NCBI GenBank assembly: GCA_963699755.1
Contig: CAVOVB010000003.1
Location: 1 to 64,000, forward strand
Direction: 5' to 3'
Length of the DNA: 64,000 bases
Origin: an uncultured delta proteobacterium
GTDB lineage: Bacteria > Myxococcota_A > Polyangia > Polyangiales > Houyiibacteriaceae
Part shown: piece after piece, positions 1 to 49,873 of the stretch
Layout of the letters: each line of letters begins with the position of its first letter
How positions within the stretch are numbered: position 1 is the stretch's first letter
Program-made: the position numbers and the translations under genes
Notes under the pieces: model-generated
The model's database searches: none
What the model was told of the DNA's origin: nothing
The model's input: the letters and a program-made list of their open reading frames with translations, nothing else

Positions 1-18
1 AATCCGGCCCCCGCAACC
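1..18 (+). tRNA. 3' end of initiator tRNA-Met (partial, window edge); also the attL core GGCCCCCGCAACC (6-18)
   Basis: AATCCGGCCCCCGCAACC matches the T-arm/acceptor end of bacterial tRNA-fMet; longer copies at 22735, 25634 and 45411 carry the CAT anticodon loop. Cannot tell whether this copy is the intact gene. Confidence 0.75.
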
Positions 19-1685
19 CACAGCGTTGACCGCTCTTCAAGGCCCTCGGTTTGCACCGGGGGCTTTGTCGTTCCGCCAAAGAAAAGGGCGCCTCCGCGAA
101 CGGTCCAGCGGGCCCGATAGCGCCCGTCTTCGAGGGGGTGGAGCTCAACGCCATCGTCGAGCAGATGCTTGAGCGCTTCTCGCGCGTCCTTGGGGCTCTT
201 GTCGAAGAGCGCACCGAGGTCACGAATCCGTGCGACGACGTCCTCGGGCCCGGGTAGGTCGAGTGGCGCGAGCATCGCTCCGAGCTCTTCGACTCGGCGA
301 CCTTGTCTGCTGGCGAGGACTTCGAGCTCGCGGATCTTCTCGAGGATGCTAGCCGGCGCCGTCCCGGTGGAGGCGAGGTCGACGAGGTTGTCGATCTTGG
401 CTCGAGTCGTGGCAAGCGCCGTTTCGGCCCCGGCGCGCTCGTCGGGGACGGTGCGCTGCACCCTCGCGAGCTCAGCTCGGGCCGTCTCGATGAGATGTGC
501 GACGACCTCGGGCCGATTGAAATACAGGAGCATCGCGGACGTGAAGGCCTCTCGTAGGGCGTCTTCCATCACCGTGTGGGAGTTGTCACACGATCCACCG
601 TTGCCGCGGCTGGCATCACATCGGTAGCGAGGCTTTTGCGTCTTCTCGATCACCATCGGGCCGCCACAGACACCGCAGCGGATCAAGGTAGACAGAGGGT
701 AGACCCGGCGCGCGGTGCTGGCCCCGCCTTTGCGGCAATAGGCGGATCGGCCAAGGGCCGCGTACCGCTTTCGGGCTTCGTCGTTGCGTGCTTGGACGAG
801 GGACCAGGTCTGTTCGTCCACGATGCGGAGCTCGGGCAGCTCGACCTCGACCATCGGAGACTCGCCTGGGCGCACGACGCGCTTGCCCGTCGTGGGGCTC
901 TTCTTCCAAGCGCGGGCGCCGAAGGTCCAGCGGCCAGCGTACTTCGAGTTCTGGAGCATCGAGCGGACTCCGGACATGGCCCACCCGTTGCGCCGTTTTC
1001 GCGAATCCTTCTGTCGTCCTCGAGGTGGGGGCACCCCTTCGTCGTTGAGGGTCTTGGCGATGTCCCGGTAGCTCCGCCCAGCGGCTCTCATCTGGAAGAT
1101 GCGTTGAACGACCGTCGCTTGCGCCGCCATGATGACCGGGACTTTCCCGTGACCGTCCGCCGCAGCCGTCGACGTGTACCCGTAGGGCAGGGCTCCCGTC
1201 ACCCGTCCGATCTGGGCCCGGTCTCGGAGACCCCGGCTCGTTTTGTCCCCCAAGTCTTTGAGGTACTGTTCGCTCAGGATGGATTTCACGCCGTAGAGGA
1301 GGTCACCCCCATTACCCAGGGTGTCGATGCCGTCGGCGATTCCAATGAGCCGCACCCCCGAAAACGCGAACCGCTTCCGGATGGACGCGGAGTGCTCGAT
1401 GTCTCGAGAGAGGCGCGAGAGGTCTTCCACGACGACTATGTCGAGCTCCCCGGAGTCCACCGCCGCCATGAGCGAAATCAGCCCCGGCCGCTGATTCGTG
1501 GCGCCGCTGATGCCTTCGTCGCGATAGGTGTGCTCGGGGCAGAGCTGACCACCCCGTGCCTCCACCCACTGCCGAAGACGCGCAATCTGCGCGGACGCGC
1601 TTGTCTCCGATTGCTTGTCCGACGAAAACCGGGCGTAGGCGCCGATCCTCAGTCCTGCGAGTTGTCGGTCCATCGCAGGGCGCAT
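1..1685 (-). CDS. Large serine recombinase (resolvase + recombinase + Zn-ribbon + coiled coil); runs off the window through the att core
   Basis: Manual translation (absent from the ORF track as no stop in window): MRPAMDRQLAGLRIGAYARFSS..DEGISG..RPGL..EDLSRLSRD..LPYGY..CGVCGGPM..YRC..LEERSTLWVAGAG; AAGGA RBS upstream. Confidence 0.93.
   Translation of the reverse strand, partial: MRPAMDRQLAGLRIGAYARFSSDKQSETSASAQIARLRQWVEARGGQLCPEHTYRDEGISGATNQRPGLISLMAAVDSGELDIVVVEDLSRLSRDIEHSASIRKRFAFSGVRLIGIADGIDTLGNGGDLLYGVKSILSEQYLKDLGDKTSRGLRDRAQIGRVTGALPYGYTSTAAADGHGKVPVIMAAQATVVQRIFQMRAAGRSYRDIAKTLNDEGVPPPRGRQKDSRKRRNGWAMSGVRSMLQNSKYAGRWTFGARAWKKSPTTGKRVVRPGESPMVEVELPELRIVDEQTWSLVQARNDEARKRYAALGRSAYCRKGGASTARRVYPLSTLIRCGVCGGPMVIEKTQKPRYRCDASRGNGGSCDNSHTVMEDALREAFTSAMLLYFNRPEVVAHLIETARAELARVQRTVPDERAGAETALATTRAKIDNLVDLASTGTAPASILEKIRELEVLASRQGRRVEELGAMLAPLDLPGPEDVVARIRDLGALFDKSPKDAREALKHLLDDGVELHPLEDGRYRARWTVRGGALFFGGTTKPPVQTEGLEERSTLWVAGAG
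42..67 (+). terminator. Terminator-like hairpin in LSR left arm, downstream of tRNA end
   Basis: GCCCTCGGT-TTGC-ACCGGGGGC-TTTGT; also at ~25890 and ~32432. Confidence 0.5.
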
Positions 1686-1686
1686 C

Positions 1687-1869
1687 CTATCGTTCCTTGA
1701 TCAGACTTGCCACCGCCGAGCGCACCAGGATCGTCAGCGCGTGCCGCTCGGGCGCGGAGAGCCGCTGGTGCGGACGCGGGGCGTTGAATCGGTTGCCTTG
1801 CTCGCCCTGGTCCTTCGGCAGGCGGCGTGATGTGCGCGTAGGTTGGCTTGTGCGAGGCGTTCCGGCCAT
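1687..1869 (-). CDS. Small protein upstream of LSR, candidate directionality factor
   Basis: 60 aa, stop abuts LSR start; same position as xis in the tyrosine element; no recognisable motif. Confidence 0.35.
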   Translation of the reverse strand: MAGTPRTSQPTRTSRRLPKDQGEQGNRFNAPRPHQRLSAPERHALTILVRSAVASLIKER

Positions 1870-1974: not shown

Positions 1975-2230
1975 TTGCATCCTTTTGCTCAATTGTGATT
2001 CGCTCTGACTCAAAATGGAGAACTTTGCTTCGTTTCGCGTCAGAAGGATTCACTTTGCTTCAGAGTTGCGCAGAAGGATCCAAAATTGTTCATCGTGCGG
2101 CAAAAGAGGTCACGACTTGTTCGGGCAAGGCATAGTTTTGGCAGACACCAAAAACTGCGCGGCACTCGCTTCGGGTCTTCGTCCCGAGTTCGACCGTGGT
2201 TGCTGCGCTCAACGCCTTCGGCTTATTCGC
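1975..2230 (+). repeat. Origin-like backbone module copy 1 (short direct repeats + oriT-like IR/nic)
   Basis: GGGCAAGGCATAGTTTTGGCAGACACCAAAAACT at 2123-2156; inverted homologue 4182-4436; homologue 19678-19792. Confidence 0.8.
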
Positions 2231-4181: not shown

Positions 4182-4436
4182 GCGAATGAGCCGAAGGCGT
4201 TGAGCGCGCGACTCGCGCGACCGCTCGCGCGATCAGCGGGAGAAAGAAGCGCGTGCAGTTTTGTTGGCAGACAAAACTATCCCTTGCCCGAACAGAGTCT
4301 GGTTCCTTTTGACGCACGATGAACAATTTTGGAGCCTAATGCCCAACTCTGAAGCAAAGCGACTCCTATTGAATCGAAATGACGCAACCTGGAGCAGAAT
4401 GAGTCAGACCGAAGCACTTTCGTGCAAAACGATGCA
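4182..4436 (-). repeat. Origin-like backbone module copy 2 (inverted)
   Basis: Reverse-complement similarity to 1975-2230, including AGTTTTG-N8-CAAAACTATCCCTTGCCC. Confidence 0.8.
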
Positions 4437-4647: not shown

Positions 4648-4722
4648 TTACGCGGCGATCACCACTTCCATCGGCAGCCCGAATTCCAGCGGACAACGCT
4701 GTGCGTATCGGGCCCCCGCAAC
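4648..4722 (-). repeat. LSR attR arm copy 1, encodes VAGARYAQRCPLEFGLPMEVVIAA*
   Basis: 75-bp repeat ending in tRNA core; stop TAA. Confidence 0.92.
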
Positions 4723-4733
4723 CAAGGAAGTCA

Positions 4734-4768
4734 GGCACTTAGCGAACTGGCTAGGTGCCTTTCTTTTT
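4734..4768 (+). terminator. Terminator in tyrosine-integrase left arm
   Basis: GGCACTTAGC-N6-GCTAGGTGCC-TTTCTTTTT; copies at 17953, 40266, 49849. Confidence 0.7.
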
Positions 4769-5078
4769 GCTCGTTGACGCGTGGTTGACATGAGGTGGTG
4801 CGAGCGGCGCCAACGCCTCGACCAAACGTCGTTGGGCACCCGATCCGAGGTGCGCGTACATGTGCGTGCTTTGCTCGGAGCGATGCCCGAGCTGGGCTTG
4901 TACGGCCTTGATCGAATGGCCTCCGGTGACCGCTTGGCTGGCGATCGAGTGGCCTCCGAGGGCGTGGTGACTGAGCGGCCGAAGGCCAAGCATGCGCTGT
5001 ACTTCGCGGGCCGGCCGCTTGTAGCCAGCGATGTAGCGAGGGAACGTGCCGTCTTTGCTGAAGAGGAACTCGGGCCCG
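4751..5078 (-). pseudogene. C-terminal remnant of tyrosine integrase
   Basis: GPEFLFSKDG..HHALGGHS..LGHRSEQSTHMYAHL..KKKGT*, very similar to 17970-19058 but truncated, catalytic Arg changed to Gly. Confidence 0.9.
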
Positions 5079-5128
5079 GTCCGAGCGGCACCCTGCTCGT
5101 CGCGCCGAAACATCGTACCCTGGCGTTC

Positions 5129-6022
5129 ATGACGGCAGAAGATCACATGGGCTCGGTGGCGGAGCTCTGGCGGTTTCCAGTGAAGTCGATGGGCGGAGAG
5201 CGGCTCCGCGAGGCCGACATCGATGGTGGCGCTTTGCGAGGTGACCGCGCGTACGCCCTGATCGAAAAGGAGACTGGAAAGGTGGTTAGCGCCAAGAGCG
5301 CCAAGCTCTTTCCGGACTTGCTCGATTGCCGCGCCGAGTTCCTCGAGCCGCCGCGCCGCGGCGGTGTCATTCCGCCGGTCCGGATCACGCTTCCAAACGG
5401 AATCTGGGCGACGAGCGAAACCGACGAAGCCGACCGGGCGCTGTCGGAGTATTTCGGGCGCGAGGTCACGCTCGCACGCGCTGCGCCTTCCGATTTCACC
5501 ATCGACCAGTACCACCCCGACGTCGAAGGGGCCGACCCCAGTGGCCGCCGGGACACCACGAGTGACCAGAAGCTTGGCTCGGCCTTCTTCAGCGAAATGG
5601 GGATGGACTCGCCCGTGCCCGAGGGTGCTTTCTTCGACTTGTTCCCGCTGTCACTGATCGCCACCTCGACGCTCGAACGACTCGGCGAGCTCGCACCGCA
5701 GAGCCAATTCGACGCGCGACGCTTCCGGATGAATCTGACCATCGCCACCGAGTCAGACGGATTCGTCGAAAACGGCTGGGTGGGAAGGGAGCTCGCCATC
5801 GGCGACTCGGTGATGCTCCACGTGGCCATGCCGGATCCCCGTTGCGTCATGACGACCCTCGCTCAAGGGAATCTTCCGAAGGACAGCGACATCCTCAAGA
5901 CACTTGCCCAGCACAACCGCCTCGACGTGGGCGGAGGCGCCCGCTTTCCATGCGCAGGCGCCTACGCCGTGACAATCGTTACCGGGACGCTGCGCGTCGG
6001 CGACCCGGTGATTCTTCGTTGA
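5129..6022 (+). CDS. MOSC domain protein
   Basis: LWRFPVKSMGGE, RRFRMNL, PRCVMTT motifs; start trimmed to MTAED. Confidence 0.9.
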   Translation: MTAEDHMGSVAELWRFPVKSMGGERLREADIDGGALRGDRAYALIEKETGKVVSAKSAKLFPDLLDCRAEFLEPPRRGGVIPPVRITLPNGIWATSETDEADRALSEYFGREVTLARAAPSDFTIDQYHPDVEGADPSGRRDTTSDQKLGSAFFSEMGMDSPVPEGAFFDLFPLSLIATSTLERLGELAPQSQFDARRFRMNLTIATESDGFVENGWVGRELAIGDSVMLHVAMPDPRCVMTTLAQGNLPKDSDILKTLAQHNRLDVGGGARFPCAGAYAVTIVTGTLRVGDPVILR

Positions 6023-6193
6023 CCGACCAGTCGGCCAAAGGGCCGCCGGCCTGTTCTTGGGGCTCAGTCGGTTCGTTGCCTTGCATGCAAGCGGGGAGCT
6101 GGCCGAGCGCCGCGGACTCCGGGAGGGCTCCCAGCACAGGTTGCTCAGTGTGCTTCTGGTTCTCTTGAGGAGGTCATCATGAAGAGTGTTCCA

Positions 6194-6649
6194 TCATTTG
6201 ATCCCTGCGCCGGAGGCGCGCCTCAGAAAACCGACGACGAGCAGCGCCCACGCGATGATCAGCCCCAATCCCGCGGTGATGTGCGTGAGTGTGACGACGA
6301 GCTCCTGCCATGGTTCGCCGCCCGTGACGCCTGCCTGACTTGCAGCAATAGGCAACGTCTGCGTCGTTCCCCACCAAGAATTCGCTACTTCGGACATCGC
6401 CATGGCCCACGTCAACCAAGCCGCCACCACCATCACCCAGACGGACTTGAGCCCGACACTGTGCGGGAGCGTCAGCATCGCAGTCGCCAGGACAATGAAC
6501 AGCATGCCGTTCGTTACGAGCTGGATGTGAGCCCCAAGCGCGAGCCTTGGGTGTGGAGTTCCAGGGATGGCAAGGCCCCACACCAATCCGACCAGCACGA
6601 GAACCATGCCGTGAATCAGAATCTGCCGACTGCCACTGTGAACGCTCAT
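6194..6649 (-). CDS. Membrane protein, styrene-oxide-isomerase (StyC)-like
   Basis: HG-x-VL first helix, PRLALGAH..NG motif, 4 hydrophobic segments. Confidence 0.6.
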   Translation of the reverse strand: MSVHSGSRQILIHGMVLVLVGLVWGLAIPGTPHPRLALGAHIQLVTNGMLFIVLATAMLTLPHSVGLKSVWVMVVAAWLTWAMAMSEVANSWWGTTQTLPIAASQAGVTGGEPWQELVVTLTHITAGLGLIIAWALLVVGFLRRASGAGIK

Positions 6650-6814
6650 CGATGCTGCCCTCTCTGTGCTTGGCGCTGCGCCGAGCCGGCCGAACCGCTC
6701 GCGGCTCACCTGCGGCCGCCCGCGCGAATATGCCACGACGGCGGCCGGGAGCATAGTCGGCATGAACGCCTGGTGACCACGGGTCAGCAAGCCTCCCTTG
6801 CGTTCTTCGACCAG

Positions 6815-6889
6815 CTACGCGGCGATCACCACCTCCATGGGCAGCCCAAACTCCACCGGACAACGCTGTGCGTATCGGGCCCCCGCAAC
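6815..6889 (-). repeat. LSR attR arm copy 2 (..RYAQRCPVEFGLPMEVVIAA*)
   Basis: Mostly synonymous differences from copy 1; stop TAG. Confidence 0.92.
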
Positions 6890-7163
6890 TAATCATAACG
6901 AGCAGTTAGCGATCATACGCTCTCTGCTCGTTTTTTCTTTTTGACGCGTATTTGACATCAGCAATCTCGACGTGAGTCAAAACGCAGTCTGCATCGCGCA
7001 GCAGCGGTCAACTTTCCAAGCTTTTTCGCAGCTGGAGTTCGAGGAACGCGCGTCCTCCCGGGTGCATAACCCGAAGGTCGGGCGTGTCACTAAGTGCTGC
7101 GATTCGCGGGAGACGAAACGCGCGAGTCTCCGCGACCTTCGGGCAGAAGACCCGAAGGTCGCG
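6890..7163 (+). repeat. Integrase-less left arm ('type 3') copy 1: terminator, TTGAC direct repeats, symmetric core-like sites
   Basis: Homologous to 38142-38402; AACGAGCAG..CTGCTCGTT-T-tract at 6897-6942. Confidence 0.8.
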
Positions 7164-7349
7164 AACGTGTACCTCGGGCGAGGAACCCGACAGTCCCAGT
7201 AAGGACTGTTCCGGCGCTCGCTGGCCAAAGCGAACGGCGATCGGGATGCGCGACCCTTGTCTGCTAGCCACGCGCACAGGGTTCACGACGGAGCGGACAA
7301 ACTCTCTAGGGATCCGTTCACAACCATCGGACAGTGGCTCAAGAAAAAC

Positions 7350-7725
7350 GCGTTGCTGCGCGATCGAGCTGCTTCCCGACGCGCAGCAGCGCCAAGTGCT
7401 GCGCCTGATGTACGTCGATGGTTTGGCGCAGAGTGAGGTTTGCGAAGTGCTCCAACTCAGCAAGACCCGCATCTCACGCTTTCACAGCGCGGGCGTCGAG
7501 ACGGTGCAGAAGCTGCTGCTCCTAGGAAGCGCTCTCGAAGAGGAACACGTCGCAAAGAGTGTGGCGCAGCTCTCCGAACGGCGTCCCAAGGAGCTACTCC
7601 TCGCACTTTATAGAGATCGGCTCGACTACCCGAGTGCCCGATCCAAGCTCGGCGTTGCAGCGACGGAGCTTGAGGAACTTCATCAAGCCGCGCTTGAGGT
7701 CCTACTCCAACACCGTCGAAGTTAG
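7350..7725 (+). pseudogene. Sigma-70 region-4 HTH fragment
   Basis: AIELLPDAQQRQVLRLMYVDGLAQSEVCEVLQLSKTRISRFH plus second degenerate HTH; no credible start. Confidence 0.6.
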
Positions 7726-7951
7726 TTGCAGCGTTTCTGCCCGGACCATGCGCCCGTGACTGCGTTTGTTTGCCAGTCTCCTGGCCCATCGGGCTCATGC
7801 TGAGCGCTGATGTCAAAACCAGACGTTCGTGTCCGGTGGTTCTGCCAAGCACAGATGTCCGCTTCCAGATGGGGACCGTGGGGCAGGGGGCGTTTGTTCT
7901 TCCTAGGCTCTGACCACTGGCTGCAGTTGCGAAGCTCCTCAAGTTGGTCCC

Positions 7952-9439
7952 TCACTGCTTCAACGAACTCAGCGAGCCAGGTTCCAGGACGAGTCCTCCG
8001 TCCAGGTCCATGCGTCCGCGCTGGTTCCCAGCGTGCAGTCGAGGCTCCTGGAGCCGCTCAGAGAATCGGGATTGCTGTATCGGGGAGGCGACTCGTCGCC
8101 CTGGCAGAACATCTCGTCGGCGGTCTGGAAGCTCAGAATCGAAGTACAGCTCCTCGTCCAGGTTGGTGCCGTTGATGACGCACTTCTTCATCGCCTGAGC
8201 GCTGCCGTTGAAGCTCAGGGAGTAGGTCCCGTCATCCGAGAGCGCGAGGAGGCCGGTGAGAGGCCCCGTTGCACCTCCCATGACCGTGCACGCCCAGTCG
8301 GGGCCGTTCTCGGCGAAGCTCAGCATGGTGGCGGTGCCGCTGACGTCGTAGATGTTGACATCCGTGGCATGGGCCTCGAGGGTGGCCGACCAAGACTGCG
8401 TGCGCACGAAGCCGGGGGCGGGGTCGTTCCTGTCCTCGAAGCTCACGGTGAAACCACCGCGGAGCGCGTCGCTGGCGCCGACGATACGAAACTCGGTGAG
8501 GTAGATGGCGAACGCGTCTCCGGCGCCGGTGTTCTGTACGCTGACGGCGACCACCGCCGGGTCCGGCACCTGGTTCGGCGCACGGTAGACCGCGGACACA
8601 TTGCCGCTGTCGGGCGTCACCGTACCGAACGTCCCGTCCCCTCCCTCCGCGCCGTTGACCGACCAATGCCCTAGGCGCGCGCCAAAGTCGTAGACGTGAC
8701 CGTTGCTAAACGTGTACGTGCTGGGAATCCTCTCGCACTTACGAACGGCGAGTTCGGGGTGGTAAATAGCGTAGTCCGGGTTGAACTCCACCGCCTCGAT
8801 CAGCTCGTCCGGGCCGATCAACCGCTCCCCGGTGCTGGGGTCGAAGTACCAGCATCCCGAGTAGTACACCGCCTGGGTCTGGCCGACCCGCACCTCGATA
8901 GGACCCTGCGTGCTCGCAGGCAGCAGCTGGATCGCGTACAGCCCGCCCCAGTCGCTGAAGTGGGTGGTCTCCACCGACAAGGTGGAGGCGCTCTGGTCCA
9001 AGGAGGAGCCCAGGAGGACCCGATTCCAGGTGCGATCCCTGGTCTGGTAGCCGATGCCCAGGTACTCGGGCGCCGTGCCGGCCAGCATGGCCTCGGTCCA
9101 GCCCAGCGTCACCCTGGCCGGGGCCGCCAGAGTTATCCCCTCGGGTCCCAGCCGGTACGCCCCCCCGAACCCCGTGGGCGCCTCATTGCTGATGGGTGTG
9201 ACAGAGATCTCGGTATCCGCAGCGAGAGCGCCCGGCGGGATCTCCAGGGTGAGCATGGCGTCGCCGCTGACCAGCGAGCCGCCCTCGGGGCCGATGGTAG
9301 CGGTGACCGCCGCCCCCATGGGCGTTCCGATCGCGGTCGTAAGGGGGCCGTCGGGGGTGGGCGCAGAGCTCCCGCTGCCGGAACAGCCGGCGGCGAGGAC
9401 GAAGCCGAGAAGCCAACCGAGAAAATCCTTCGAGCCCAT
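7952..9439 (-). CDS. Secreted lipoprotein, ZU5-like N-terminal region
   Basis: GGAGG RBS, lipobox AAGC, IGPEGGSL..LEIPPGAL..YRLGPEG..TTHFSDW. Confidence 0.8.
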   Translation of the reverse strand: MGSKDFLGWLLGFVLAAGCSGSGSSAPTPDGPLTTAIGTPMGAAVTATIGPEGGSLVSGDAMLTLEIPPGALAADTEISVTPISNEAPTGFGGAYRLGPEGITLAAPARVTLGWTEAMLAGTAPEYLGIGYQTRDRTWNRVLLGSSLDQSASTLSVETTHFSDWGGLYAIQLLPASTQGPIEVRVGQTQAVYYSGCWYFDPSTGERLIGPDELIEAVEFNPDYAIYHPELAVRKCERIPSTYTFSNGHVYDFGARLGHWSVNGAEGGDGTFGTVTPDSGNVSAVYRAPNQVPDPAVVAVSVQNTGAGDAFAIYLTEFRIVGASDALRGGFTVSFEDRNDPAPGFVRTQSWSATLEAHATDVNIYDVSGTATMLSFAENGPDWACTVMGGATGPLTGLLALSDDGTYSLSFNGSAQAMKKCVINGTNLDEELYFDSELPDRRRDVLPGRRVASPIQQSRFSERLQEPRLHAGNQRGRMDLDGGLVLEPGSLSSLKQ

Positions 9440-9735
9440 TGCGCACCTCCGTCGAACGGTCATTCCGAGCACCTAGCCCGGCTGAACGTACTAAGTGTAA
9501 AGTGTAGGACATTTTTAGTGTAGGACCTTTTTAGTCAGAAAACGCTAGCTGGTTCGGCGTAGGGCGCTGGAGCTCGGCGGAGTTCCGCGGCGCTTTGGTG
9601 GGGCGGTGAGCGTCAAATGGCGAGCTGGCTCACGAAGATGCTTATGGCTGGTGGGTCTCTGGACGTACATCGGCATGGTCGCGCGCTGGGCGTAAACAAC
9701 CTGCCCCGCTCTTGGGGTTCTCACGGCGAATCGAG

Positions 9736-9948: not shown

Positions 9949-9980
9949 GACGTCGTTGCGGAAAACGCGTTTGATAAGTT

Positions 9981-11221: not shown

Positions 11222-11275
11222 GCGCGCCGTCTCCGAGCTCTCTTTCGGGAGCATCGGCAGCGAATGAAGACCGAC

Positions 11276-11420: not shown

Positions 11421-11424
11421 TTGG

Positions 11425-36070: not shown

Positions 36071-36124
36071 TAAGCGCTTCCGGCGTCGTTTGCCAGAACG
36101 GTGTCGGGTCGTGTCGAGCAGTCC

Positions 36125-40142: not shown

Positions 40143-40178
40143 TCCGCAGCGGCCTGACCCGGAAATCATCACGACCAG

Positions 40179-40305
40179 CTACGCAGCAATCACCACCTCC
40201 ATCGGCACCCCGAATTCCACTGGACAACGCTGTGCGCAACAGGCCCCCGCAACCAACGAATTTGTGCACTTAGCAGAAACGCTAGGTGCCTTTCTTTTTG
40301 CTCGG
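40179..40305. repeat. LSR attR arm copy 6 (40179-40253) + tyrosine left-arm stub
   Basis: ..CAQRCPVEFGVPMEVVIAA*; then terminator and KKKGT* stub. Confidence 0.9.
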
Positions 40306-40354
40306 TGCGATGACGTTGCCAAGGTGGATCGACATCCGTCGCCTGAGCGATGCC

Positions 40355-41428: not shown

Positions 41429-41632
41429 TCGCTCTCCCTTCTTCGAGCGCAACCGCAACGCAACCCGACGTCGCCTTCAGTCCTTGGATGCTATGCGTGC
41501 ATCGATGTCGTGGCCTACTTCGCACCGCCCGAGGCGCTGCCACGAGGGGGGTAGGGAGTCCCCGTCCAGGGAAGCCATCTTACCGCATCAAATTTGGCCC
41601 GACGCAACCATGGTCAGAGGGTGTCGGATCGT

Positions 41633-43033
41633 TTAGCTCTCGGTAGGCTCGCCAGAGCGGCGAGCGAGCACCTCGACGCGCAGGCCTTTGGGTTGTGTGA
41701 AGGGCCGCGCCACCGCACGGACCTTTCGCCCGACAGGCACGACCTGCAGGTCAAACATATTCACCCAGTAGGAAACCATCTCGACGGCCACCAGCTCCCC
41801 AAGTATGGCACCGGTGCAGCGGTGGCTGCCGCTGCCGAATGGGAGCACCCGTCGCCTCAGAGGACCCGACTGCGGTGCAAAATAGCGCGTTGGATCGAAC
41901 TCGTTCGGACGCTCAAAGACTGCCTCGTTGAGATGGTCGCCCGCGATCACGACCAGGACCTCGTCACCCTTGCGAATCGAGTAGCCAGCGAATTCGAAGT
42001 CCCGATCAGCGACACGAAGGACCGCCGTACCAGGTGGGTTCAGCCGCACGGCCTCGAGGAATGCTGCGCGGAGATACTTCTGCTTGGCCGGCGCGACCGG
42101 GCCGGAGGACTCGCGAGATAGCCTTTCGAACTCCCGCCTGATCTGAGCCAGGTGCTCCGGGTGGGTGAGGAGCTGGTAGAGGAGAAAGGAAGAGGCCGAC
42201 GCGACGGTATCGAATCCGGCGAGGTAGGCGCTGTAAGGCACTGCGATGAGATCGCGATCCTCCCAGCGCTCCCGCCCGATGGGAGGTTCGAGATCGAGGT
42301 AGCGCCCCACCAGCGTGGTCGCGGCGCGCTCGGGGCTGGAGCGAATCCGGGCGACCAGGTCCAAGAAATGCGAACGCATGCGCTTCTGGACCGACCTGTA
42401 AACGGGATTGCGCAAGACCCATGCGGGCGCGTGCCCGAACGTGGCCCAGATCAGGGTGTGCACCACCAGCGCCAGTTCCTTCTTGCTAAATGGAAAGGGC
42501 TCGCCATTCAGGAGAACCGACAGGACGTCGACCGTTTGAACCTGGGCTTCATGAAGCACGTCCACTTGATCTCCGGCGCGCCATCCAGCGGTGTGCTCAG
42601 CGAGGCGGCTTTGGATGTCGACCCGGCGCTTCGCCTCCAAGCTCGCGGTCATGAACTCGAGATGCGCTTTGCGAAACATCCGGTGCTGCGGGCCGTCGAA
42701 GGTGCTGGGGAGACAACTGCCGAGCTCCGCGTCGAGCACGTGCATGGACTTGCTCGTCCGCAAGCAGCTTCCGGCTTCGAGCAGGTCGATGGCCTCGGGT
42801 CCAAACAGGCAGGTCATCTCGTTGTTCAGCATGCGGAGACGAAAGGCATCCCCGTAGATGGAGCGACTCTCCATGAGGAATGGGAGAACGTCTCCGAGGA
42901 ACTGCCGGAGCGGGCCGATGAACGGGAACGACTTCACGATCGGCGGGCGGCGTTTCTCGGTTGGGTGGGGTGTGCCGGGCAGAGCCGACTCACTTGCGGT
43001 CGTCGCGGTCATGGAAAGGCTCCCGTCGGGCAC
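41633..43033 (-). CDS. Cytochrome P450
   Basis: AGFDT, EAVR, FDPTRY, FGSGSHRCTG heme motif. Confidence 0.95.
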   Translation of the reverse strand: MPDGSLSMTATTASESALPGTPHPTEKRRPPIVKSFPFIGPLRQFLGDVLPFLMESRSIYGDAFRLRMLNNEMTCLFGPEAIDLLEAGSCLRTSKSMHVLDAELGSCLPSTFDGPQHRMFRKAHLEFMTASLEAKRRVDIQSRLAEHTAGWRAGDQVDVLHEAQVQTVDVLSVLLNGEPFPFSKKELALVVHTLIWATFGHAPAWVLRNPVYRSVQKRMRSHFLDLVARIRSSPERAATTLVGRYLDLEPPIGRERWEDRDLIAVPYSAYLAGFDTVASASSFLLYQLLTHPEHLAQIRREFERLSRESSGPVAPAKQKYLRAAFLEAVRLNPPGTAVLRVADRDFEFAGYSIRKGDEVLVVIAGDHLNEAVFERPNEFDPTRYFAPQSGPLRRRVLPFGSGSHRCTGAILGELVAVEMVSYWVNMFDLQVVPVGRKVRAVARPFTQPKGLRVEVLARRSGEPTES

Positions 43034-43038
43034 TCATT

Positions 43039-43074
43039 GTAACAGTCGTTAGGATAGAACCTAACGCTTGTTAC
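43039..43074. promoter_or_regulatory. Probable TetR operator
   Basis: GTAACAGTCGTTAGG-N6-CCTAACGCTTGTTAC between divergent P450 and tetR. Confidence 0.75.
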
Positions 43075-43127
43075 GTTAATATTCAAAGCAATTCTCTCGT
43101 CGGCGTTCAGCCGCTGGAGTAGGTCTC

Positions 43128-43748
43128 GTGAGGACGATGACAGACGCCGCCACTCGACAACGCCTGCTGAGCGAGGCCGCTTACCAGTTCGCTCGCTTTG
43201 GCTACGATGCCGCGTCGTTGCGCAAGATCGCCGAGCGGGTCGGGATCCGCGCGGCGACGGTTTACAGCCACTTCCCGGAGGGCAAGGCCCAGCTCTACGA
43301 GGAGATCCTGGCGACGGTATCGTCGACGCTCACCAAGCGGATCGCCCATCGCTACGGGCAGAACACAGGACTGTCGGCGGAGGACGTGATCGTTCAGATG
43401 TGCGCCGCGTTCTGGGACTTCTGCGAGGAGCACCCCGACTACGCAACCCTGTTGCTGCGCGAGACCTTCGACGCCGACAACTCTACGCTGGTGGGCGAGG
43501 GGGGACCGGCGCGCGAGGTCGTTGCGGCCTGCATCGGTTATGTCGAGGCGGCGCAGGCTCGAAGCGAGCTGCCCGCCTTCGACGTGGAGGCGTTTTCTCT
43601 CTGGGTGGCGAGCTACATGCTCAGCTACCACGGCGCGCCGGGGCTGAGGAGCAACCTGCAGCGACGGCCTTGGAGCCCGAAGCGCGCGCGAGAACAGTTC
43701 GTGGCCATGGTGAAGAACTTGCTGCAAAGTGCGATGGGCGGCGGCTGA
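43128..43748 (+). CDS. TetR/AcrR regulator
   Basis: FARFGYDAASLRKIAERVGIRAATVYSHF. Confidence 0.93.
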   Translation: MRTMTDAATRQRLLSEAAYQFARFGYDAASLRKIAERVGIRAATVYSHFPEGKAQLYEEILATVSSTLTKRIAHRYGQNTGLSAEDVIVQMCAAFWDFCEEHPDYATLLLRETFDADNSTLVGEGGPAREVVAACIGYVEAAQARSELPAFDVEAFSLWVASYMLSYHGAPGLRSNLQRRPWSPKRAREQFVAMVKNLLQSAMGGG

Positions 43749-44131
43749 GGCGAATGCTCGGGGAACGACGCTGACCGGGATGACGAATGAGCCGCGGGGC
43801 TGTTTTGAAGCTCGGCTCCTCGGCGACACGCCCTAAGGAGGAGAGTTGGATGACGAAGGCAGAGCAGGTTCGGCTTGCGCGACACCGCGGGTTCGGAAGC
43901 TCTGAACTCATTTGCAATCGAGATCTTTCCGGTTGCGCGGCGATAGAGCGTGACTTCGACCCCCTCGATGTGTCGCGCTCCGCGAACGGCGACTGACCGA
44001 GCATCCCCGCATCGAGCGACGCTGCCTGCTCGTCAAGCGCCTCCGGGAAATCACCAGGACCGCCAATGCAACGGTCGTGAGAAATCTCGCCATGGAATGC
44101 TCACGGCGCAAAGGGCGTCAGGCGAGCACTG

Positions 44132-45178
44132 TCACTGACCCCCTTGGGAGGCGCGATCATACATCTCCTTGATGGAGGGATCTCTGCCTCCGCGGTCGTA
44201 GATGCCATCCAACGTGATCTGCGCGATGCGGGGGCCGTCTTCTGTCATGGTCACCCAGAGGATGTGGTCCACGTTGCCCGGACCATCCTTGTGAAACGAG
44301 GCGCCCGTGGGACCCATGGTGATGTAGTCGCGGCCAAAACGCTCCTCGATCTCGTAGTAATGAAGATGGCCCGCGATAAACGTGTAGTTCCGGTCTTGAA
44401 GCAGTTGCTCGATGGCCAGAAAGTTCTCGGATGGGTTTTTCCACGCGGGCTCGTGCAAGAAGACCAATGTCCAGCGGACTTCAGGATGCTTGGCCAGCGT
44501 TTCCTCGACGTACGACACCTGCTCGTCGCTGAAGTTGGCGGGCTTTCCGAGAAAGCTAGCCACGCTGGCCATGAACTCGTTCAGCATCGCCTTAGCTTTC
44601 TCGGGGTCCTCCTTCTGAAGCTTGTTGTACAGCTCGATGTCTTCCTCCATGGTCTCCGGCGCTGGCCGTGGAGGGTCCTCGCTGTTGAGCACGAGGAAGA
44701 GCGCGTCGCCGTAGACGAAATGATAGTAGGTCGCGCCGTGTCGCTCGAGCCAGACCTGCTCCATCGTCTCGTTGCCAAGATCATGATTCCCGACCGTACG
44801 GAAGAACGGCATCTCCAACTTTGACAACATGCCGTCTACTTGCTCCCATTCTGCCGTCAGCTTTTCCTTGTCTTTGCTGTAGCCTTCAATGAGATCGCCG
44901 ACGTTGATCACGAACTCCGGTTGCACAAGGTTCAATTGCTCCATCGCTCGATCGAAGATGCCCCGGTGATCGGCACCCCCTGTGCGGTCACCAATGACCG
45001 CAAACTGAAAGTCACCTGGATTGTTCTTGAAGCTCTCTGAAGTCCATGGCTTGGCCTCAGTCAGAGCTGCCCGATCGAAATCGAACCTAGAGGCCGTTCG
45101 TGCTCCCTGTTGGTGGCAACCCAGCAGAATGAGCACCCCGGCGAGGAACACAAGAATACGCGGAGCAGGTGAACTCAT
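44132..45178 (-). CDS. Calcineurin-like metallophosphoesterase, lipoprotein
   Basis: GDRT, VGDLIEG, GNHD, GHLH. Confidence 0.9.
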   Translation of the reverse strand: MSSPAPRILVFLAGVLILLGCHQQGARTASRFDFDRAALTEAKPWTSESFKNNPGDFQFAVIGDRTGGADHRGIFDRAMEQLNLVQPEFVINVGDLIEGYSKDKEKLTAEWEQVDGMLSKLEMPFFRTVGNHDLGNETMEQVWLERHGATYYHFVYGDALFLVLNSEDPPRPAPETMEEDIELYNKLQKEDPEKAKAMLNEFMASVASFLGKPANFSDEQVSYVEETLAKHPEVRWTLVFLHEPAWKNPSENFLAIEQLLQDRNYTFIAGHLHYYEIEERFGRDYITMGPTGASFHKDGPGNVDHILWVTMTEDGPRIAQITLDGIYDRGGRDPSIKEMYDRASQGGQ

Positions 45179-45263
45179 GGTGGTGGACCTCAGTGGGCGG
45201 AGCATTACATACGCTGGAACGTGCGCATCCAGTCGTAGATTCGATCGACGTCGAGCTCGACTC

Positions 45264-45446
45264 GTTGACCTCAGGGTGCCAGGGCGATCTGAAGTCACGT
45301 GATATCGCCTGACGAACCGTGAACACGGCGATACGGGCAAATCCCCATCATGCCGAAGACTTGTGTGGTTCCCGTGTGGCGTGATGGCGTGCGAACCTGG
45401 GCCTTCGTGAGCTCATAACCCGAAGGTCGTCGGTTCAAATCCGGCC
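45264..45446 (+). repeat. Tyrosine-type attR: arm B + truncated tRNA half (45411-45446)
   Basis: GCTCATAACCCGAAGGTCGTCGGTTCAAATCCGGCC. Confidence 0.85.
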
Positions 45447-45524
45447 TTGAGCATGTGCGGCCGGATCTGGGCACACTTCATGCGATTGCATGCATTGAAC
45501 TTGGTGGGTTAGAGCCCGACGCGA

Positions 45525-46364
45525 TCACTGGTCTGGACAGCCCCACCGTTCCACCATCTGACAGTCGATTTCCTTCGTGATCCGGCAGCCACTCCTGGTG
45601 ACGGAGGGAGCTTCTCGCGCATCCAGGATCACGACGGTCCCGCACCGACCGTCGGCGCGGGGCTCGATGAGGGTCGCAAACGTCAAGAATCCTGGGTCAT
45701 GCGCGTCGCCGAATTCGCGGTACTCGGTGGGCGTGCAGGCCTTTCTAGCTTTCTCGATGCAAGCCCGGTGCGCCGGGAGGACCTCGGCGTTGTCGAGCCT
45801 GTAGTCGTAGCCGTCCGGGCAGACTTGGTAGTTGAGACCTGTCTGCCGCTTGTGGGCTTCCACGACATCATCGAGCGTGGGGAGCGGACCATCGTGCCAA
45901 ACCACCGGAATCGGCTTGGGTCGGTCGAGACAGCCACGCATTTTTCGAAACGCCCGCGTGGCTTGTTGGGCCCGGGCTTGTCGACTGACAGATTCGTTGG
46001 AGTTCTTGGCAAGAACCGAGAGCATCGCGTCGGTCACCGAGGGATTGCAGGTCATATTGCTCTGAATCCCAGAGTCCGAGTCGTGCAGCAGTCGCTCGAG
46101 GACATCCACAGGCGTATTGGGATTCCCCGCAAGCGACGTTCGCGCCGATTCGTCTTCGTACATCTGCCGGAGCACCTCGGGCTCGGTCTTTGGGTTTCGC
46201 GCAACCACATTCCTGATCTGCCAATGTTCGTTGGCGCTGAGCTTCTGGAGCAGCTCGGTGGATGAGCTTCGGTTGCCCGTAATCGCGACGGCGGTACGAA
46301 CGCCGATATGAAATAGGACTACCCGACGCCAAGGCCCGTGGGCTTTCGGGTAGTCCGATTTCAT
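45525..46364 (-). CDS. HEAT/LRV-repeat protein, probably 5'-truncated
   Basis: Repeated VA.NP.T motifs. Confidence 0.6.
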   Translation of the reverse strand: MKSDYPKAHGPWRRVVLFHIGVRTAVAITGNRSSSTELLQKLSANEHWQIRNVVARNPKTEPEVLRQMYEDESARTSLAGNPNTPVDVLERLLHDSDSGIQSNMTCNPSVTDAMLSVLAKNSNESVSRQARAQQATRAFRKMRGCLDRPKPIPVVWHDGPLPTLDDVVEAHKRQTGLNYQVCPDGYDYRLDNAEVLPAHRACIEKARKACTPTEYREFGDAHDPGFLTFATLIEPRADGRCGTVVILDAREAPSVTRSGCRITKEIDCQMVERWGCPDQ

Positions 46365-46658
46365 ATTTGCGTTCGCGAACCAAGGCTTTCAGTCGCGCGT
46401 GTTGCGGAGCGGGTGAAGGAAGGGGGACACGATGTGCCGACTGACAAAATTCGGAAACGCCATCGCAGAAGCGCTCCTCTGATCCGACAGGCCGCGCCCC
46501 TCGCCGATGTTGCCCATGTCTACGACAACTCTTCGCTGAACCAATCGCCTCGCCGCGTGCTGTCTTTCGACAACGGAAACGTGGAGTTCATCGCTGAGGC
46601 AATCCCCGACTGGGTTCTGCGAGTTTACCGAGGGCATCGCAAATCTAAGGGCCCATGA
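46338..46658 (+). pseudogene. Zeta-toxin-like ATPase C-terminal stump
   Basis: SVARVAERVKEGGHDVP.DKI..R..VYDNS; P-loop missing. Confidence 0.75.
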
Positions 46659-46764
46659 CGCACCCATGCCCGCGAACCTGCTGCAACAGGCCGGTGTCAC
46701 ACCGCTTCACATCGCGTTCCCGGCCGAGCTCGCATCCCGCTGGCTGCCAGCTGTGCTTAAGCGG

Positions 46765-46836
46765 CTACGCAGCAATCACCAACTCCATCGGCACCCCAAA
46801 CTCCATCGGACGACGCTGTGCGCAACGGGCCCCCGC
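46765..46836 (-). repeat. LSR attR arm copy 7 (..MELVIAA*), core truncated
   Basis: Repeat homology; stop TAG. Confidence 0.88.
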
Positions 46837-46841
46837 CTTCT

Positions 46842-47360
46842 TCATCTTGGCCGGGACTCCCTCAACTCCGCGGCTCGCGGGCTCGGCTGAGCGAGAAGCT
46901 CATCACGAATGGCGTCGAGGCCCTGCTGCAACCAGCCCTTGAAGAGCCAAGCGATTGGCATGGCCGGTAGATACGCGAAGGGGCAAGTCAGGCCGAAGGT
47001 GTAGGTCCAGACGATGCGTGTGCCGCCTTCGGTTTCGGTGAAGTCCCAGTTGCCGGTGCCGCTCCGGACCAGCAACGAGAACGGCGGCTTCACCCCGCCT
47101 GTCCAGCCATAGCGGTGCCTGACTGGCGGATCGTATTCGAGGATCGTCTCATCGAGAACGCTGTCGTCGGTCATGAAGATCCGGCGCTTCGAGCCCTTGG
47201 CGAGACTTTGCCCTTCGTGCATCTCGATCTTCCTTATCCCGGCGAACGGGCCGCGAGCGCGGATGGTGCGTGGAGCGTTGGCGCTGTCGGTGGCAAACGC
47301 GAACACCTCCTCGCGCGGGCGCGGGATCAAGACTGAAGCCGAGGTCGAGATGCTTGCCAT
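46842..47360 (-). CDS. SRPBCC family protein
   Basis: RPREEVFAF..ETILEYDPP..GGTRIVWTY. Confidence 0.85.
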   Translation of the reverse strand: MASISTSASVLIPRPREEVFAFATDSANAPRTIRARGPFAGIRKIEMHEGQSLAKGSKRRIFMTDDSVLDETILEYDPPVRHRYGWTGGVKPPFSLLVRSGTGNWDFTETEGGTRIVWTYTFGLTCPFAYLPAMPIAWLFKGWLQQGLDAIRDELLAQPSPRAAELRESRPR

Positions 47361-47907
47361 CGAGTGGTACGCTACCACGACACCGCGAGCCGTGGCGACC
47401 CGTCGCTTGGGTTCAGAACGCGCCCACACCAGCTCGCTGGTTTTCATACCAAGCCACAGCGAGCGCTACGGAGGCCTCCTCGAGGAACTCGAGCATCTCA
47501 GCGGTCGAGGAGCTCTTGTAGACGGCGCTGGACCTCGTTTCAGCTCACAGTCGCGGCCTCAGAAAGCTCCACGCCAATCAACGCTCGGTCTTTGGGGTCC
47601 AAGTTGAGCCTTCTTCAAGAATCTTGTCCGCAGGCCAAGCCATGGCTTCAGTCTACGCTCGGTCTTCGAAGATCGTATCCTCTATGGACCTCCGGCGGCG
47701 GCCGCGCAGATGTCGTTCGCCCACGTGTGCATGGTCACGCTGAACGGACCCGTGTACGAGCACGATGTTCATGGTGTCATTCCCGTGTGATGATTGCTTG
47801 TCCGCTGCGGTCGCACCGCCGGGCAAGTCCCGGTCGTGTTTGACGTTTCAGAATGATGACGAGTACTAGGGAAAGCCCCTCGCACACATTCGGCATTGCG
47901 ATCGGCG

Positions 47908-49494
47908 CTACAGAGCGATGTCGATCTCCCAAGTCGCCGCGGTCGTTTGGCCTGTCCAGATCTCTCCCGGGCCGATGGTGCGCTCGACTCGAAGCTCGCC
48001 GATCCCGGTCGTCTCAAAGGCAGACGGGTCCACCGCCTCCGGAAGGAAAAGCAAGAGCGCTTGGCCCGTGCTTGCGTCCTTGCCCGAGGCCGTGAATCGG
48101 CGGTTCTCGTAGTCCCATTTCACGCTTTCGATTCGGCCCGGCGCCGCCCGCAATAGGGGCCGGCGCATGACGGCGGCGAAGTCGTGGTCGAACCCGATGA
48201 TCTCGTTGCTCGGGCACTCGACCTCGTAGAAGCCCCAAAGATTGGGGTCGTCGCCCTCGTAGGCGTGATGCGGGTCGCCGCAGGCATCGCTCCACTGCCA
48301 GAGCGCGGCGCCGAAACGATACTGATCCTGAAAAGCCTCATGCTGCTGGAAATAGTCGTCTTCGGGGTCCTTGGTGCGGGCGGGGTCGGCTCCCCACTCA
48401 CCGGTCACGACCGGAACGCCACCGTACATCCTGGCCTGCTCGAGCGCGACCTCGAAGCCGCTTTCGTCTAGCGTCTCGGTGAACGTGCCCTGGTAGATGT
48501 GTGGCGCATACACCACTTGTCCGTCGTGCTCGAAGTCCGGGCGTAATGCGAGCCCCGGCACGACCACCCAGTCCGGCGACGGCTCGATGAAGAATAGGCG
48601 CTTTGGCGCACCGGCCCGCTCTTCGCCCTCGCGCACTGCGGCCAAGCCTCGCTGGTAGAATTGCGAAAGCTCCTCGGACATCTCCTCGAGCCCCTCGTCG
48701 CGAGCAAAGATCGCGAGTGCCACGGCACTCCAGGCGTTGGGCTCGTTCATGATGTCGTAGCCTGCAACGGAGTCGTGACGAGAGAACCGCGCGACTAGGT
48801 GGGTGAGCATCGCATGGTAGCGAGTCTGGATACCGACGCCGCCTGGACCCTCGGAGTCATCCCAAAATGCTTGAAACGCGGCGAGCACTGCCGGCGAGAA
48901 GAAGCGCGTGGTCGTGGTGACCCCGTCCTCGATGCAGCGTGGCCGGTCGCCGTCGAACGTGGCCCAGCCTGGCGCGCCATCCCAGCCGACCGCGGGTAAG
49001 GTTCCCTCGGGACATTCTTCGTCGGGCCGCGCTTCTAAGGTCGGCCCCCACGCATCTTCGTGGAGGTCGATGACTGTGTAAATCCCGCGGGTTTCGAGCA
49101 TGCGGACGACCGCTTCGACCTCATCGAGATAGCTTTCGTCGTACAGTCCCGGTTCCGGCTCGACGAGCGACCAGCTGACGATGAGGCGCACGAGGTTCCA
49201 GCCGATGCTTTGGATTGCGTCGGCGTCGTCCTCATCGAAGGGATGCACCGTCGGAATCTCGGGATCGAACGCGTAGTACTCGCCGAGCGCATTGACGTTG
49301 ACCCCTCGCAAGAGCACCTCGCGACCGAGTGCATCTCTGATACGGCCGCCTTCTTCGAGGTCGGACTCGGCGTGGAGTGCGCTCAGCGATCCGGTGATGA
49401 CCGCGGAGCCATCGGAGCCACAACTCGACATGCCTGCGACGGCGATGGTGAGCAATGCGCGAGCCAAGGATTCGAAGTTGCGGGAAGCACGCAT
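47908..49494 (-). CDS. GH5 endoglycoceramidase-like lipoprotein
   Basis: GREVLLRGVNV, VIDLH.D, YDIMNEP, VTGEWG. Confidence 0.9.
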   Translation of the reverse strand: MRASRNFESLARALLTIAVAGMSSCGSDGSAVITGSLSALHAESDLEEGGRIRDALGREVLLRGVNVNALGEYYAFDPEIPTVHPFDEDDADAIQSIGWNLVRLIVSWSLVEPEPGLYDESYLDEVEAVVRMLETRGIYTVIDLHEDAWGPTLEARPDEECPEGTLPAVGWDGAPGWATFDGDRPRCIEDGVTTTTRFFSPAVLAAFQAFWDDSEGPGGVGIQTRYHAMLTHLVARFSRHDSVAGYDIMNEPNAWSAVALAIFARDEGLEEMSEELSQFYQRGLAAVREGEERAGAPKRLFFIEPSPDWVVVPGLALRPDFEHDGQVVYAPHIYQGTFTETLDESGFEVALEQARMYGGVPVVTGEWGADPARTKDPEDDYFQQHEAFQDQYRFGAALWQWSDACGDPHHAYEGDDPNLWGFYEVECPSNEIIGFDHDFAAVMRRPLLRAAPGRIESVKWDYENRRFTASGKDASTGQALLLFLPEAVDPSAFETTGIGELRVERTIGPGEIWTGQTTAATWEIDIAL

Positions 49495-49710
49495 CGGGTA
49501 GCGCCTTTCATCAAAGGGCTGGTGGTAGCTAACAACGGACTCTCTTAGCGTATGGGGTGTCCTGCGCAATGGGGCCGATCGGGCGCCACGAGGCGCAATT
49601 CTTTGGCCGCGTTTGGCGCGCCAAACAGTCGTCCCATTCCTGCTCACCCAAGAGCTGGGCGAGTGGACAATCCCGCTCCGGGCGTGTGCGTTGACAAGCC
49701 TCATGCACAT

Positions 49711-49873
49711 CCGGCGACCCGACGGTGCCTCGACGATGTGAAATCAAATGATACGACGTGACGCACTGTGGACATGGCGAAGGGACCAACGGCCGGGTCC
49801 TCATGGCGGTTTCGGAGTGATTTCGGCCTCCGCAACCGATGATGTGACGCACTTAGCGAAACCGCTAGGTACG
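49711..49873 (+). repeat. Degenerate last junction: arm B, core GGCCTCCGCAACC (49825-49837), tyrosine left-arm hairpin
   Basis: Homology to 22585 arm and 17953 hairpin. Confidence 0.75.

What the first reader, a model, noticed from the sequence alone, without database searches (positions are those of the whole stretch)
1..49873. 50-kb integron-like cassette stack at one tRNA-Met, built by two recombinase classes
About 15 co-oriented junctions: 1, 4711, 6878, 10462, 16615, 17930, 22735, 25634, 25811, 32360, 38130, 40242, 45411, 46828, 49825. Right arms (serine arm A; tyrosine arm B with tRNA 3' half) join left arms (LSR end, Tyr-int end, type 3) in many combinations. Only one intact enzyme of each class remains, and many units begin with one system's arm and end with the other's. 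Inference: the intact LSR attL could pair with any downstream arm A, excising nested circles and reshuffling cargo as in an integron.
Basis: partly seen in the sequence, partly recalled or inferred. Interest (0 to 1): 0.85.

Follow-up and report, generated by a model that had tools for sequence, protein, structure and literature searches.

The report
Stacked mobilizable islands at initiator tRNA
About fourteen small mobile DNA islands inserted one after another at the end of one tRNA gene in a sediment myxobacterium and then mostly decayed; this is a known way of building genomic islands, not an integron, although this stack is unusually deep.

Summary
In detail: 15 same-orientation junctions built from tRNA-fMet 3' sequence span 1-49.8 kb, with one intact large serine recombinase (LSR) and one intact tyrosine integrase. 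It is a tandem-accretion stack of integrative mobilizable elements (IMEs) and decayed passengers, seen across this Polyangiales genus (24 of 54 relatives). It is not an integron: no IntI, no attC, multi-gene units, cargo on both strands, and integrase stumps inside units. Of 14 units, 8 have matched arms, 2 are clearly mixed and 4 lack a start arm. New here: the LSR's attP lies inside its own gene; both intact elements carry an oriT-like site shared by islands genus-wide; unit 1 is 98.9% identical in a relative with 80% flanks; an integrase-less block is 98.8% identical between two other relatives, its identity ending at the att cores. Nested excision is plausible, but would move prefixes of the stack rather than shuffle it. 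No circle was seen. Closest precedent: Dehalococcoides ssrA islands. The scan has noted this kind of stack on other DNA.

The parts
1..17 (+). 3' end of tRNA-fMet (full gene at the end of contig C11); attL core
   Evidence: 15-nt overlap with C11
18..130 (+). arm A: LSR P' arm (CACAGCGTTG half of the attP inverted repeat), also encodes the LSR C-terminus
3..1685 (-). intact large serine recombinase, 561 aa, open at the contig end; relatives finish in the tRNA antisense (VAGAGFEPTTFGL*)
1687..1869 (-). conserved 60-aa ORF coupled to the LSR start; candidate directionality factor (inferred)
   Evidence: C-terminal ~25 aa conserved in 13 of 14 LSR loci examined; no Pfam hit
2110..2230 (+). oriT-like site 1: inverted repeat, nic-like CCTTG|CCC on the opposite strand, 26-nt conserved motif
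4182..4300 (-). oriT-like site 2, inverted relative to site 1
4648..4722 (+). serine arm T no. 1 (attR; encodes the 24-aa LSR tail); closes unit 1 (18-4722: LSR, lipoprotein, GDSL hydrolase)
4723..6889 (.). unit 2, mixed: arm B, 108-aa tyrosine-integrase stump (4754-5077), MOSC protein, T arm no. 2 (6815-6889)
6890..10477 (.). unit 3: arm C ... type-3 left arm with cut tRNA half (10342-10477); holds an IS91-like stub (9796-9984) and a relaxase C-terminal stub (10202-10360)
10478..16629 (.). unit 4, no start arm: hydrolases, GH26; ends in a ~15-nt anticodon stub at 16615
16630..17941 (.). unit 5, no start arm: cupin, DUF4336; T arm no. 3 (17867-17941)
17942..22778 (.). unit 6, complete tyrosine element: arm B, integrase (17970-19058, -), excisionase (19039-19326, -), oriT-like site 3 (19672-19793), cargo, left arm with tRNA 3' half (22582-22778)
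22779..25677 (.). unit 7, matched tyrosine arms, no integrase: GH31
25678..25829 (+). unit 8, 152-bp 'D unit': terminator-like hairpin pairing back onto the tRNA end, conserved inner motif, T-loop repeat
   Evidence: 7 copies in 6 genomes; alignment; hairpin z = -8.9
25830..32371 (.). unit 9: disrupted arm A* (41 nt replace 5 nt of the P' arm), Na/Ca exchanger, TRAP DctQM, DUF2062, BacA; T arm no. 4 (32297-32371)
32372..38141 (.). unit 10: second A* (99% identical to the first over 110 bp) with a ~50-aa LSR stump, IS remnant (34598-36075); T arm no. 5 (38067-38141)
38142..40253 (.). unit 11, mixed: arm C, GH26, T arm no. 6 (40179-40253)
40254..45446 (.). unit 12: arm B with ~8-aa integrase stump, MBL hydrolase, P450, TetR, metallophosphoesterase; tyrosine left arm with cut tRNA half (45260-45446)
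45447..46836 (.). unit 13, no start arm: LRV-repeat protein; T arm no. 7 (46765-46836, core cut)
46837..49836 (.). unit 14, no start arm: polyketide-cyclase-fold protein, GH5; tyrosine left arm with the tRNA half deleted (49673-49836)
49837..49890 (+). last arm B; no matching right end found

Best explanation
A tandem-accretion stack of small integrative mobilizable elements at tRNA-fMet. Each newcomer integrates at the intact tRNA and pushes older units downstream, so every junction is the right end of a newer element joined to the left end of an older one (shown by anatomy). Tyrosine integrases cross in the anticodon loop and leave a tRNA 3' half. The LSR crosses near the 3' end; its attP lies in its own gene, so the integrated enzyme ends in 13 tRNA-antisense residues and the circular form in a 24-residue tail (fusion seen; regulatory role inferred). 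Elements carry an oriT-like site, sometimes with a NikA-like gene and a MOBP-type relaxase, and travel by borrowing a conjugation machine (inferred). Displaced units lose integrase and mobilization genes by deletion (shown), which also fuses neighbours into mixed units. An active front LSR can excise with any downstream T arm and carry passengers, then excise alone in the recipient and leave them at the tRNA (inferred). The array therefore behaves as a last-in-first-out stack that exchanges prefixes between cells, not as an in-place shuffler.
For: Integrase stumps end at staggered points: Tyr 108, ~8 and 33 aa; LSR ~50 and ~20 aa. All 34 T arms examined stay open to a stop at the same position, pN/pS 0.32. 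T plus arm A form a perfect inverted repeat, and the in-frame fusion is seen in L109 and G004. Unit 1 is 98.9% identical in G060, whose upstream host flank is 80.2% identical; the downstream neighbour differs and identity ends at the core. A ~6.2-kb integrase-less arm C..T block is 97-99% identical between G062 and G011 (flank 75.5%), beginning and ending at cores. Front position varies: arm B 10, A 8, D 2, E 1, cut 1 of 22. Intact LSRs displaced behind a tRNA half exist (L053, L055, L057-L059). T is followed by an intact arm A in only 1 of 33 cases, as expected if attL is a poor target. oriT-like motif: 14 copies in G000 versus 0 in 10 shuffles; within 700 bp upstream of 17 of 37 relaxase hits, chance ~0.0007 each; the gene between them is NikA-like. 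Hybrids of one integrase module with the other system's right end occur (G061, G014, G023).
Against: No excised circle was seen. No directionality factor was identified, only a candidate ORF. The helper is unseen: VirB4 in 1 of 55 and PF02534 coupling protein in 0 of 55 genus genomes (incomplete MAGs that lose plasmids). The window's nic-like site (TGCCTTG|C) departs from the published MOBP consensus (C/T)ATCCTG(C/T) (PMC3772185), and its fold is not consistently significant (z -0.6, -2.4, -1.4). Cargo also moves at a finer grain than att-bounded units: P450-TetR and GH5 are separate units in G019, G022 and G023 but internal here, so IS- or homology-driven rearrangement contributes. The two intact T|A junctions found (G004, L109) show that the attL block is not absolute. 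The scarcity of T|A could also reflect later loss of arm A.
Confidence: 0.82

Rival explanations
1. Integron-like platform: a domesticated front LSR excises and re-inserts one-arm cassettes (cargo plus a T arm) individually and reorders the array within a cell.
For: T arms outnumber A arms in the window (7 versus 1 intact and 2 disrupted). T arms are conserved. An integrase-less C..T block moved between species with boundaries at the cores. Integrase-less units sit at the tRNA front in G022, G051, G015, G003. An intact integrase is usually at the front.
Against: It needs non-canonical attR x attB recombination, whereas nested excision followed by drop-off explains the same block with ordinary chemistry. 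The front LSR element is itself mobile (98.9% in G060) and is replaced by a tyrosine element or by nothing in most relatives. Units carry integrase stumps. Cargo is 16 plus / 16 minus strand. No permuted order of the same units was seen among the relatives compared.
Confidence: 0.1
2. A dead scar field: all units except perhaps the first are fossils, and sharing between genomes comes from homologous recombination of chromosomal DNA, not from site-specific excision.
For: No circles seen. Five junctions are truncated. G023 carries GH26 plus a T arm away from its tRNA contig, and G000 has stack fragments on C2 and C6. The helper is absent from the MAGs.
Against: Near-identical blocks end exactly at att cores between hosts only 75-80% alike. 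Both remaining integrases keep their catalytic motifs. Tails are under purifying selection.
Confidence: 0.25
3. Misassembly of strain variants collapsed at repeated tRNA fragments.
For: MAG with 9% contamination. The contig starts inside the repeat, so further units between C11 and C3 cannot be excluded. No listed contig spans the whole stretch.
Against: Repeats are short and diverged. The same architecture appears in independent assemblies. X1 contigs reproduce the junction contexts at 32360, 40242 and 46828 (my reading of three joints).
Confidence: 0.04

Closest known systems
Dehalococcoides ssrA-specific genomic islands (McMurdie et al. 2011, PMC3146451; passages and section 5 read)
   Same: Many tandem islands within 100 kb of one RNA gene; LSR on the reverse strand next to attL, with its 3' end running across the att site; a conserved motif upstream of each direct repeat; 15 of 31 islands without an integration module, read as cis-mobilizable.
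   Different: Target is tRNA-fMet, not tmRNA. Serine and several tyrosine systems interleave here. There is no six-gene module. An oriT-like site with NikA-like and relaxase genes is identifiable here, whereas that paper proposed no transfer origin in the passages I saw.
IME/CIME tandem accretion and cis-mobilization (review PMC5704250, passages read; Pavlovic 2004 and Bellanger 2011 seen only as citations)
   Same: Integration, decay to att-bounded remnants, accretion of a newcomer; composite excision from chimeric sites of unrelated integrases at a tRNA.
   Different: Fourteen units rather than a few; the helper conjugative element is unknown; one oriT-like sequence is shared by elements with unrelated integrases.
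Integrons (IntI/attI/attC; definition recalled)
   Same: An array of cargo units with repeated recombination sites and an integrase at one end; variable between genomes.
   Different: No IntI, no attC, multi-gene units with mixed orientation, sites derived from a tRNA, units once autonomous.
Myxococcus phage Mx8 integrase, attP inside int (recalled; search gave no paper on it)
   Same: Integration swaps the integrase C-terminus.
   Different: Mx8 Int is a tyrosine recombinase of a phage; this is a serine recombinase on a 4.7-kb element.

Membership tests
Integron | IntI-family tyrosine integrase | tested here: not met
   TIGR02249 32 bits against a cut-off of 265, over 60 residues only
Integron | attC sites with RYYYAAC..GTTRRRY ends | tested here: not met
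   0 of 14 junctions and none in the 64-kb window; the same pattern finds 72 pairs genome-wide. Simple pattern, no covariance model
Integron | mostly single-gene, co-oriented cassettes | tested here: not met
   units of 0.15-6.5 kb, mostly multi-gene; 16 plus and 16 minus predicted cargo ORFs (own gene caller)
Integron | cassettes never encoded their own integrase | tested here: not met
   integrase stumps behind arms
Integron | Pc promoter driving the array; reordering by excision and re-insertion | not tested
   no promoter scan run; no strain-level series available
IME | own site-specific integrase with attL/attR | tested here: met
   units 1 and 6
IME | oriT and/or relaxase, no full T4SS | tested here: met
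   oriT-like by position and anatomy; only a relaxase stub and no T4SS genes in the array; nicking itself is untested
IME | excision and transfer by a helper | not testable with these tools
   indirect only: 98.9% copy in G060; no circle; helper not found
CIME / tandem accretion | att-bounded units lacking integration and transfer genes, in tandem with an active element | tested here: met
   12 of 14 units lack an intact integrase
CIME / tandem accretion | cis-mobilization with the neighbouring element | tested here: inconclusive
   a near-identical passenger block bounded by cores in two relatives; not shown for this window's units 2-14
Dehalococcoides ssrA-GI | ssrA target and six-gene DsiB/DsiA module | tested here: not met
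   target is tRNA-fMet; only the LSR and a 60-aa ORF

The most novel reading that the evidence does not exclude
The genus runs a shared cassette-exchange system. Any cargo block that ends in a T arm becomes a one-arm cassette that a front LSR can pick up, deliver and drop off, or even recombine alone. The 152-bp D unit and the disrupted arm A* act as resets that turn an occupied site back into a usable attB. One oriT shared by serine and tyrosine islands at many tRNAs lets a few relaxases move all of them and swaps integrase modules between islands.
Probability: 0.2. Interest if true: 0.68.

Novelty: new member of a known kind. Interest (0 to 1): 0.38.

Why it matters
It shows how an uncultured Polyangiales genus trades metabolic cargo (glycoside hydrolases, P450, transporters) through one tRNA hot spot. 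It also offers a compact test system: an LSR with a fully defined attP/attB pair, seven natural attR variants and a C-terminus that changes on integration. This makes two points left open in the Dehalococcoides paper directly testable: whether the att-overlapping tail controls activity, and whether integrase-less islands are carried along. The principle itself is known.

Tried and rejected
Circle evidence: the joint 4723->26 in run X1 looks like attP, but it resumes at 26 rather than 18 with unlisted letters between, which matches the chromosomal T|A* junction at 32360; rejected. Fifteen joints were shown and 12 were not. A metagenome scan for intact attP gave 1 contig, where the LSR is a stump and the ends show no repeat; not a circle. 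The idea that integrases occur only at the front was rejected by displaced intact LSRs. No Rfam match in the window. The oriT-like motif was absent from viral contigs, so a phage-packaging role has no support. My first guess that the repeat at 9983/16291/38835 is an IS91 end was not confirmed: at 9983 it lies between an IS91-like stub and a relaxase C-terminal stub. Integrases for arms C, D, E and F were not found in any array (17 genomes). Runs with small word shares were not used for habitat claims. Literature searches returned nothing; others returned no paper on this system. No look-alike among earlier notes on relatives. No structure or complex prediction was run. No supplementary files were read; the figures of PMC3146451 could bear on the comparison.
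Full report
Setting. The window is the start of contig C3 of a 5.35-Mb, 11-contig genome. It begins inside the 3' end of a tRNA-Met(CAT) whose whole gene ends contig C11. That it is the initiator tRNA is my reading of its sequence. The close relatives of its serine recombinase come from records titled Polyangiales, Polyangiaceae, Myxococcales, delta proteobacterium or unclassified bacterium.

Observation. All 15 junctions are real. Nine of the 10 exact genomic copies of the 12-nt core lie in window 1-50 kb, and 5 of the 7 copies of the anticodon 13-mer lie in the window. I name the arms by side. Right of a junction: A (LSR end), B (tyrosine-integrase end), C and D; relatives add E and F. Of 14 complete units, 8 have matched arms (units 1, 3, 6-10, 12; the C/type-3 pairing rests on this window and G060), 2 are mixed and 4 lack a start arm. 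One search's stricter patterns missed the window junctions at 16615 and 46828; I added them.

The serine system. The ORF 1685->3 has resolvase, recombinase and zinc-ribbon domains and no stop before the contig end. In relatives it ends in the tRNA antisense strand. T and arm A carry the two halves of an inverted repeat around a 20-nt spacer whose central CC survives in all seven T arms. T encodes a 24-residue tail. All 34 tails collected from the window, relatives and loci stay open to a stop at the same position, with pN/pS 0.32 and minor-allele fractions of 0.06, 0.03 and 0.17 by codon position (kin are not independent). The fused reading frame is seen directly in L109 and G004, both beside LSR stumps. 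So attP lies inside the gene. T is followed by intact arm A in 1 of 33 junctions, while arm A holds 8 of 22 tRNA fronts, or 5 of 19 without the three loci picked by the LSR search. The window's one T|A junction has 41 nt in place of 5 nt of the arm. This fits attL being a poor target, though later loss of arm A would give the same pattern.

Decay. Stumps of both integrases end at different points. A relaxase C-terminal stub and an IS91-like stub lie in unit 3, and an IS remnant in unit 10. Among 17 genomes the only intact tyrosine integrase inside an array is this window's. Displaced intact LSRs occur in relatives. Units were therefore once autonomous.

Relatives. The T arm is found in 14 of 24 genus genomes and 0 of 16 other genomes of the order; a stricter pattern finds it in 24 of 54 genus genomes. 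Misses include fragmented MAGs. Order and content differ in every array mapped. Unit 1 is 98.9% identical in G060 against an 80.2% host flank, with a different neighbour. A C..T block without integrase is 97-99% identical in G062 and G011 against a 75.5% flank, bounded by cores. The B-P450-TetR-T unit is 92% identical in G022 and G019. The same P450-TetR pair sits inside unit 12 here with no junction around it, so smaller-scale rearrangement also acts.

Mobilization. A 26-nt motif at 2205, 4207 (minus strand) and 19768 occurs 14 times in the genome, 10 of them within about 2.5 kb of an integrase, and never in 10 shuffles. It is in 11 of 13 genus genomes and 0 of 107 others. On the opposite strand an inverted repeat is followed by TTG|CCC in 24 of 27 copies (a 25th match is at another site in a copy cut by a contig end). 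The motif lies under 700 bp upstream of 17 of 37 PF03432 relaxase hits (I used the 37 of 53 rows from genomes also present, leaving out one second fragment). The gene between them is NikA-like. Published MOBP oriTs have this layout, with consensus (C/T)ATCCTG(C/T) (PMC3772185, passages). One sub-family here reads CATCTTGC; the window's copies match less well. I call it oriT-like; nicking is untested. Relaxases occur in 16 of 17 genomes, but VirB4 in 1 of 55 and PF02534 in 0 of 55, so the helper is unseen. The same NikA-like gene follows the site behind a tyrosine module in G061 and behind an LSR in G062 and G019. Contigs of two runs join the LSR upstream region to the tyrosine-type oriT region. 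Both observations suggest module swaps at this shared sequence, one route to mixed units (inference).

How it works. Shown: serial integration by several integrase systems at one tRNA, decay by deletion, and recent movement of att-bounded blocks between distant hosts. Inferred: helper-dependent conjugal transfer, nested excision by the front LSR, and drop-off of passengers when the driver later excises alone. By established serine-integrase chemistry, a nested circle re-integrates in its original order, so the array exchanges prefixes and is not shuffled in place. No circle was detected; the one candidate joint is a chromosomal junction.

Comparison. Integron membership fails on four tested features. 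The structure matches IME/CIME accretion (PMC5704250, passages) and above all the Dehalococcoides ssrA islands (PMC3146451, passages and section 5). I found no paper on this system in searches of an open-access library, which does not show absence from print. Earlier notes of this scan describe the same kind of stack in other genomes; they are unchecked and came after my reading was formed.

Verdict. Real and well supported, an unusually deep and genus-wide example of a known process, with some testable extras: the in-gene attP, the shared oriT-like site and the 152-bp D unit, which remains unexplained. Interest 0.38.

Noticed in passing
G000 C1:463086, 1224971, 1229049, 1565758, 1570677, 1950953; C5:79116; C7:9231, 48761; C8:3440; C11:85037: The same oriT-like motif marks integrase islands at other tRNA and tmRNA sites; in three copies an IS91-like transposase or its remains follows it.
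   Followed up: partly
window 25678-25829; G014 (two), G011, G015, G050, G054: 152-bp D unit: hairpin plus conserved inner motif between two tRNA-end repeats; sits directly behind the tRNA in G015 and G054; its integrase is unknown.
   Followed up: partly
G000 C2:368320-373795 and C6:1-9160: Fragments of a tRNA-fMet-type stack (T, B, type-3 and tyrosine arms, shared cargo) away from the tRNA; the C2 piece lies about 10 kb from a tRNA-Thr island. Translocation or MAG contamination.
   Followed up: partly
window 49893-64000 and on to C3 ~76 kb: Beta-glucan utilisation-like cluster (GH16, GH17, GH2, sugar transporter, CBM9, PEP carboxylase) shared with G062 at 81-88% and partly with G050, but not found next to the array in the other relatives mapped; possibly an older fixed part of the hot spot.
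   Followed up: partly
window 13092-14358 and 38890-40156: Two GH26 copies, 90% identical, in different units; G023 has GH26 plus a T arm on another contig.
   Followed up: partly
window 7758-7850, 9983-10031, 16291-16360, 19862-19911, 38835-38927: A ~50-90-bp repeat, frequent genome-wide and lying downstream of relaxase genes on C1 and C7, often next to cargo starts; role unknown.
   Followed up: partly
window 10647-13093: 97% identical to C11:80772-83217, beside another oriT-like island.
   Followed up: no
window 26367-31194: Unit 9 cargo (Na/Ca exchanger, TRAP, DUF2062) are 70-80% identical paralogs of genes on C1 and C3, as if captured from a related chromosome.
   Followed up: no
window 21852-22175: HicB-like antitoxin in unit 6 with no HicA found by my gene calls.
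   Followed up: no
window 52974-53209, 2572-2654: Gly/Ser/Thr-rich linker repeats in lipoprotein-like genes, common across the genome.
   Followed up: no
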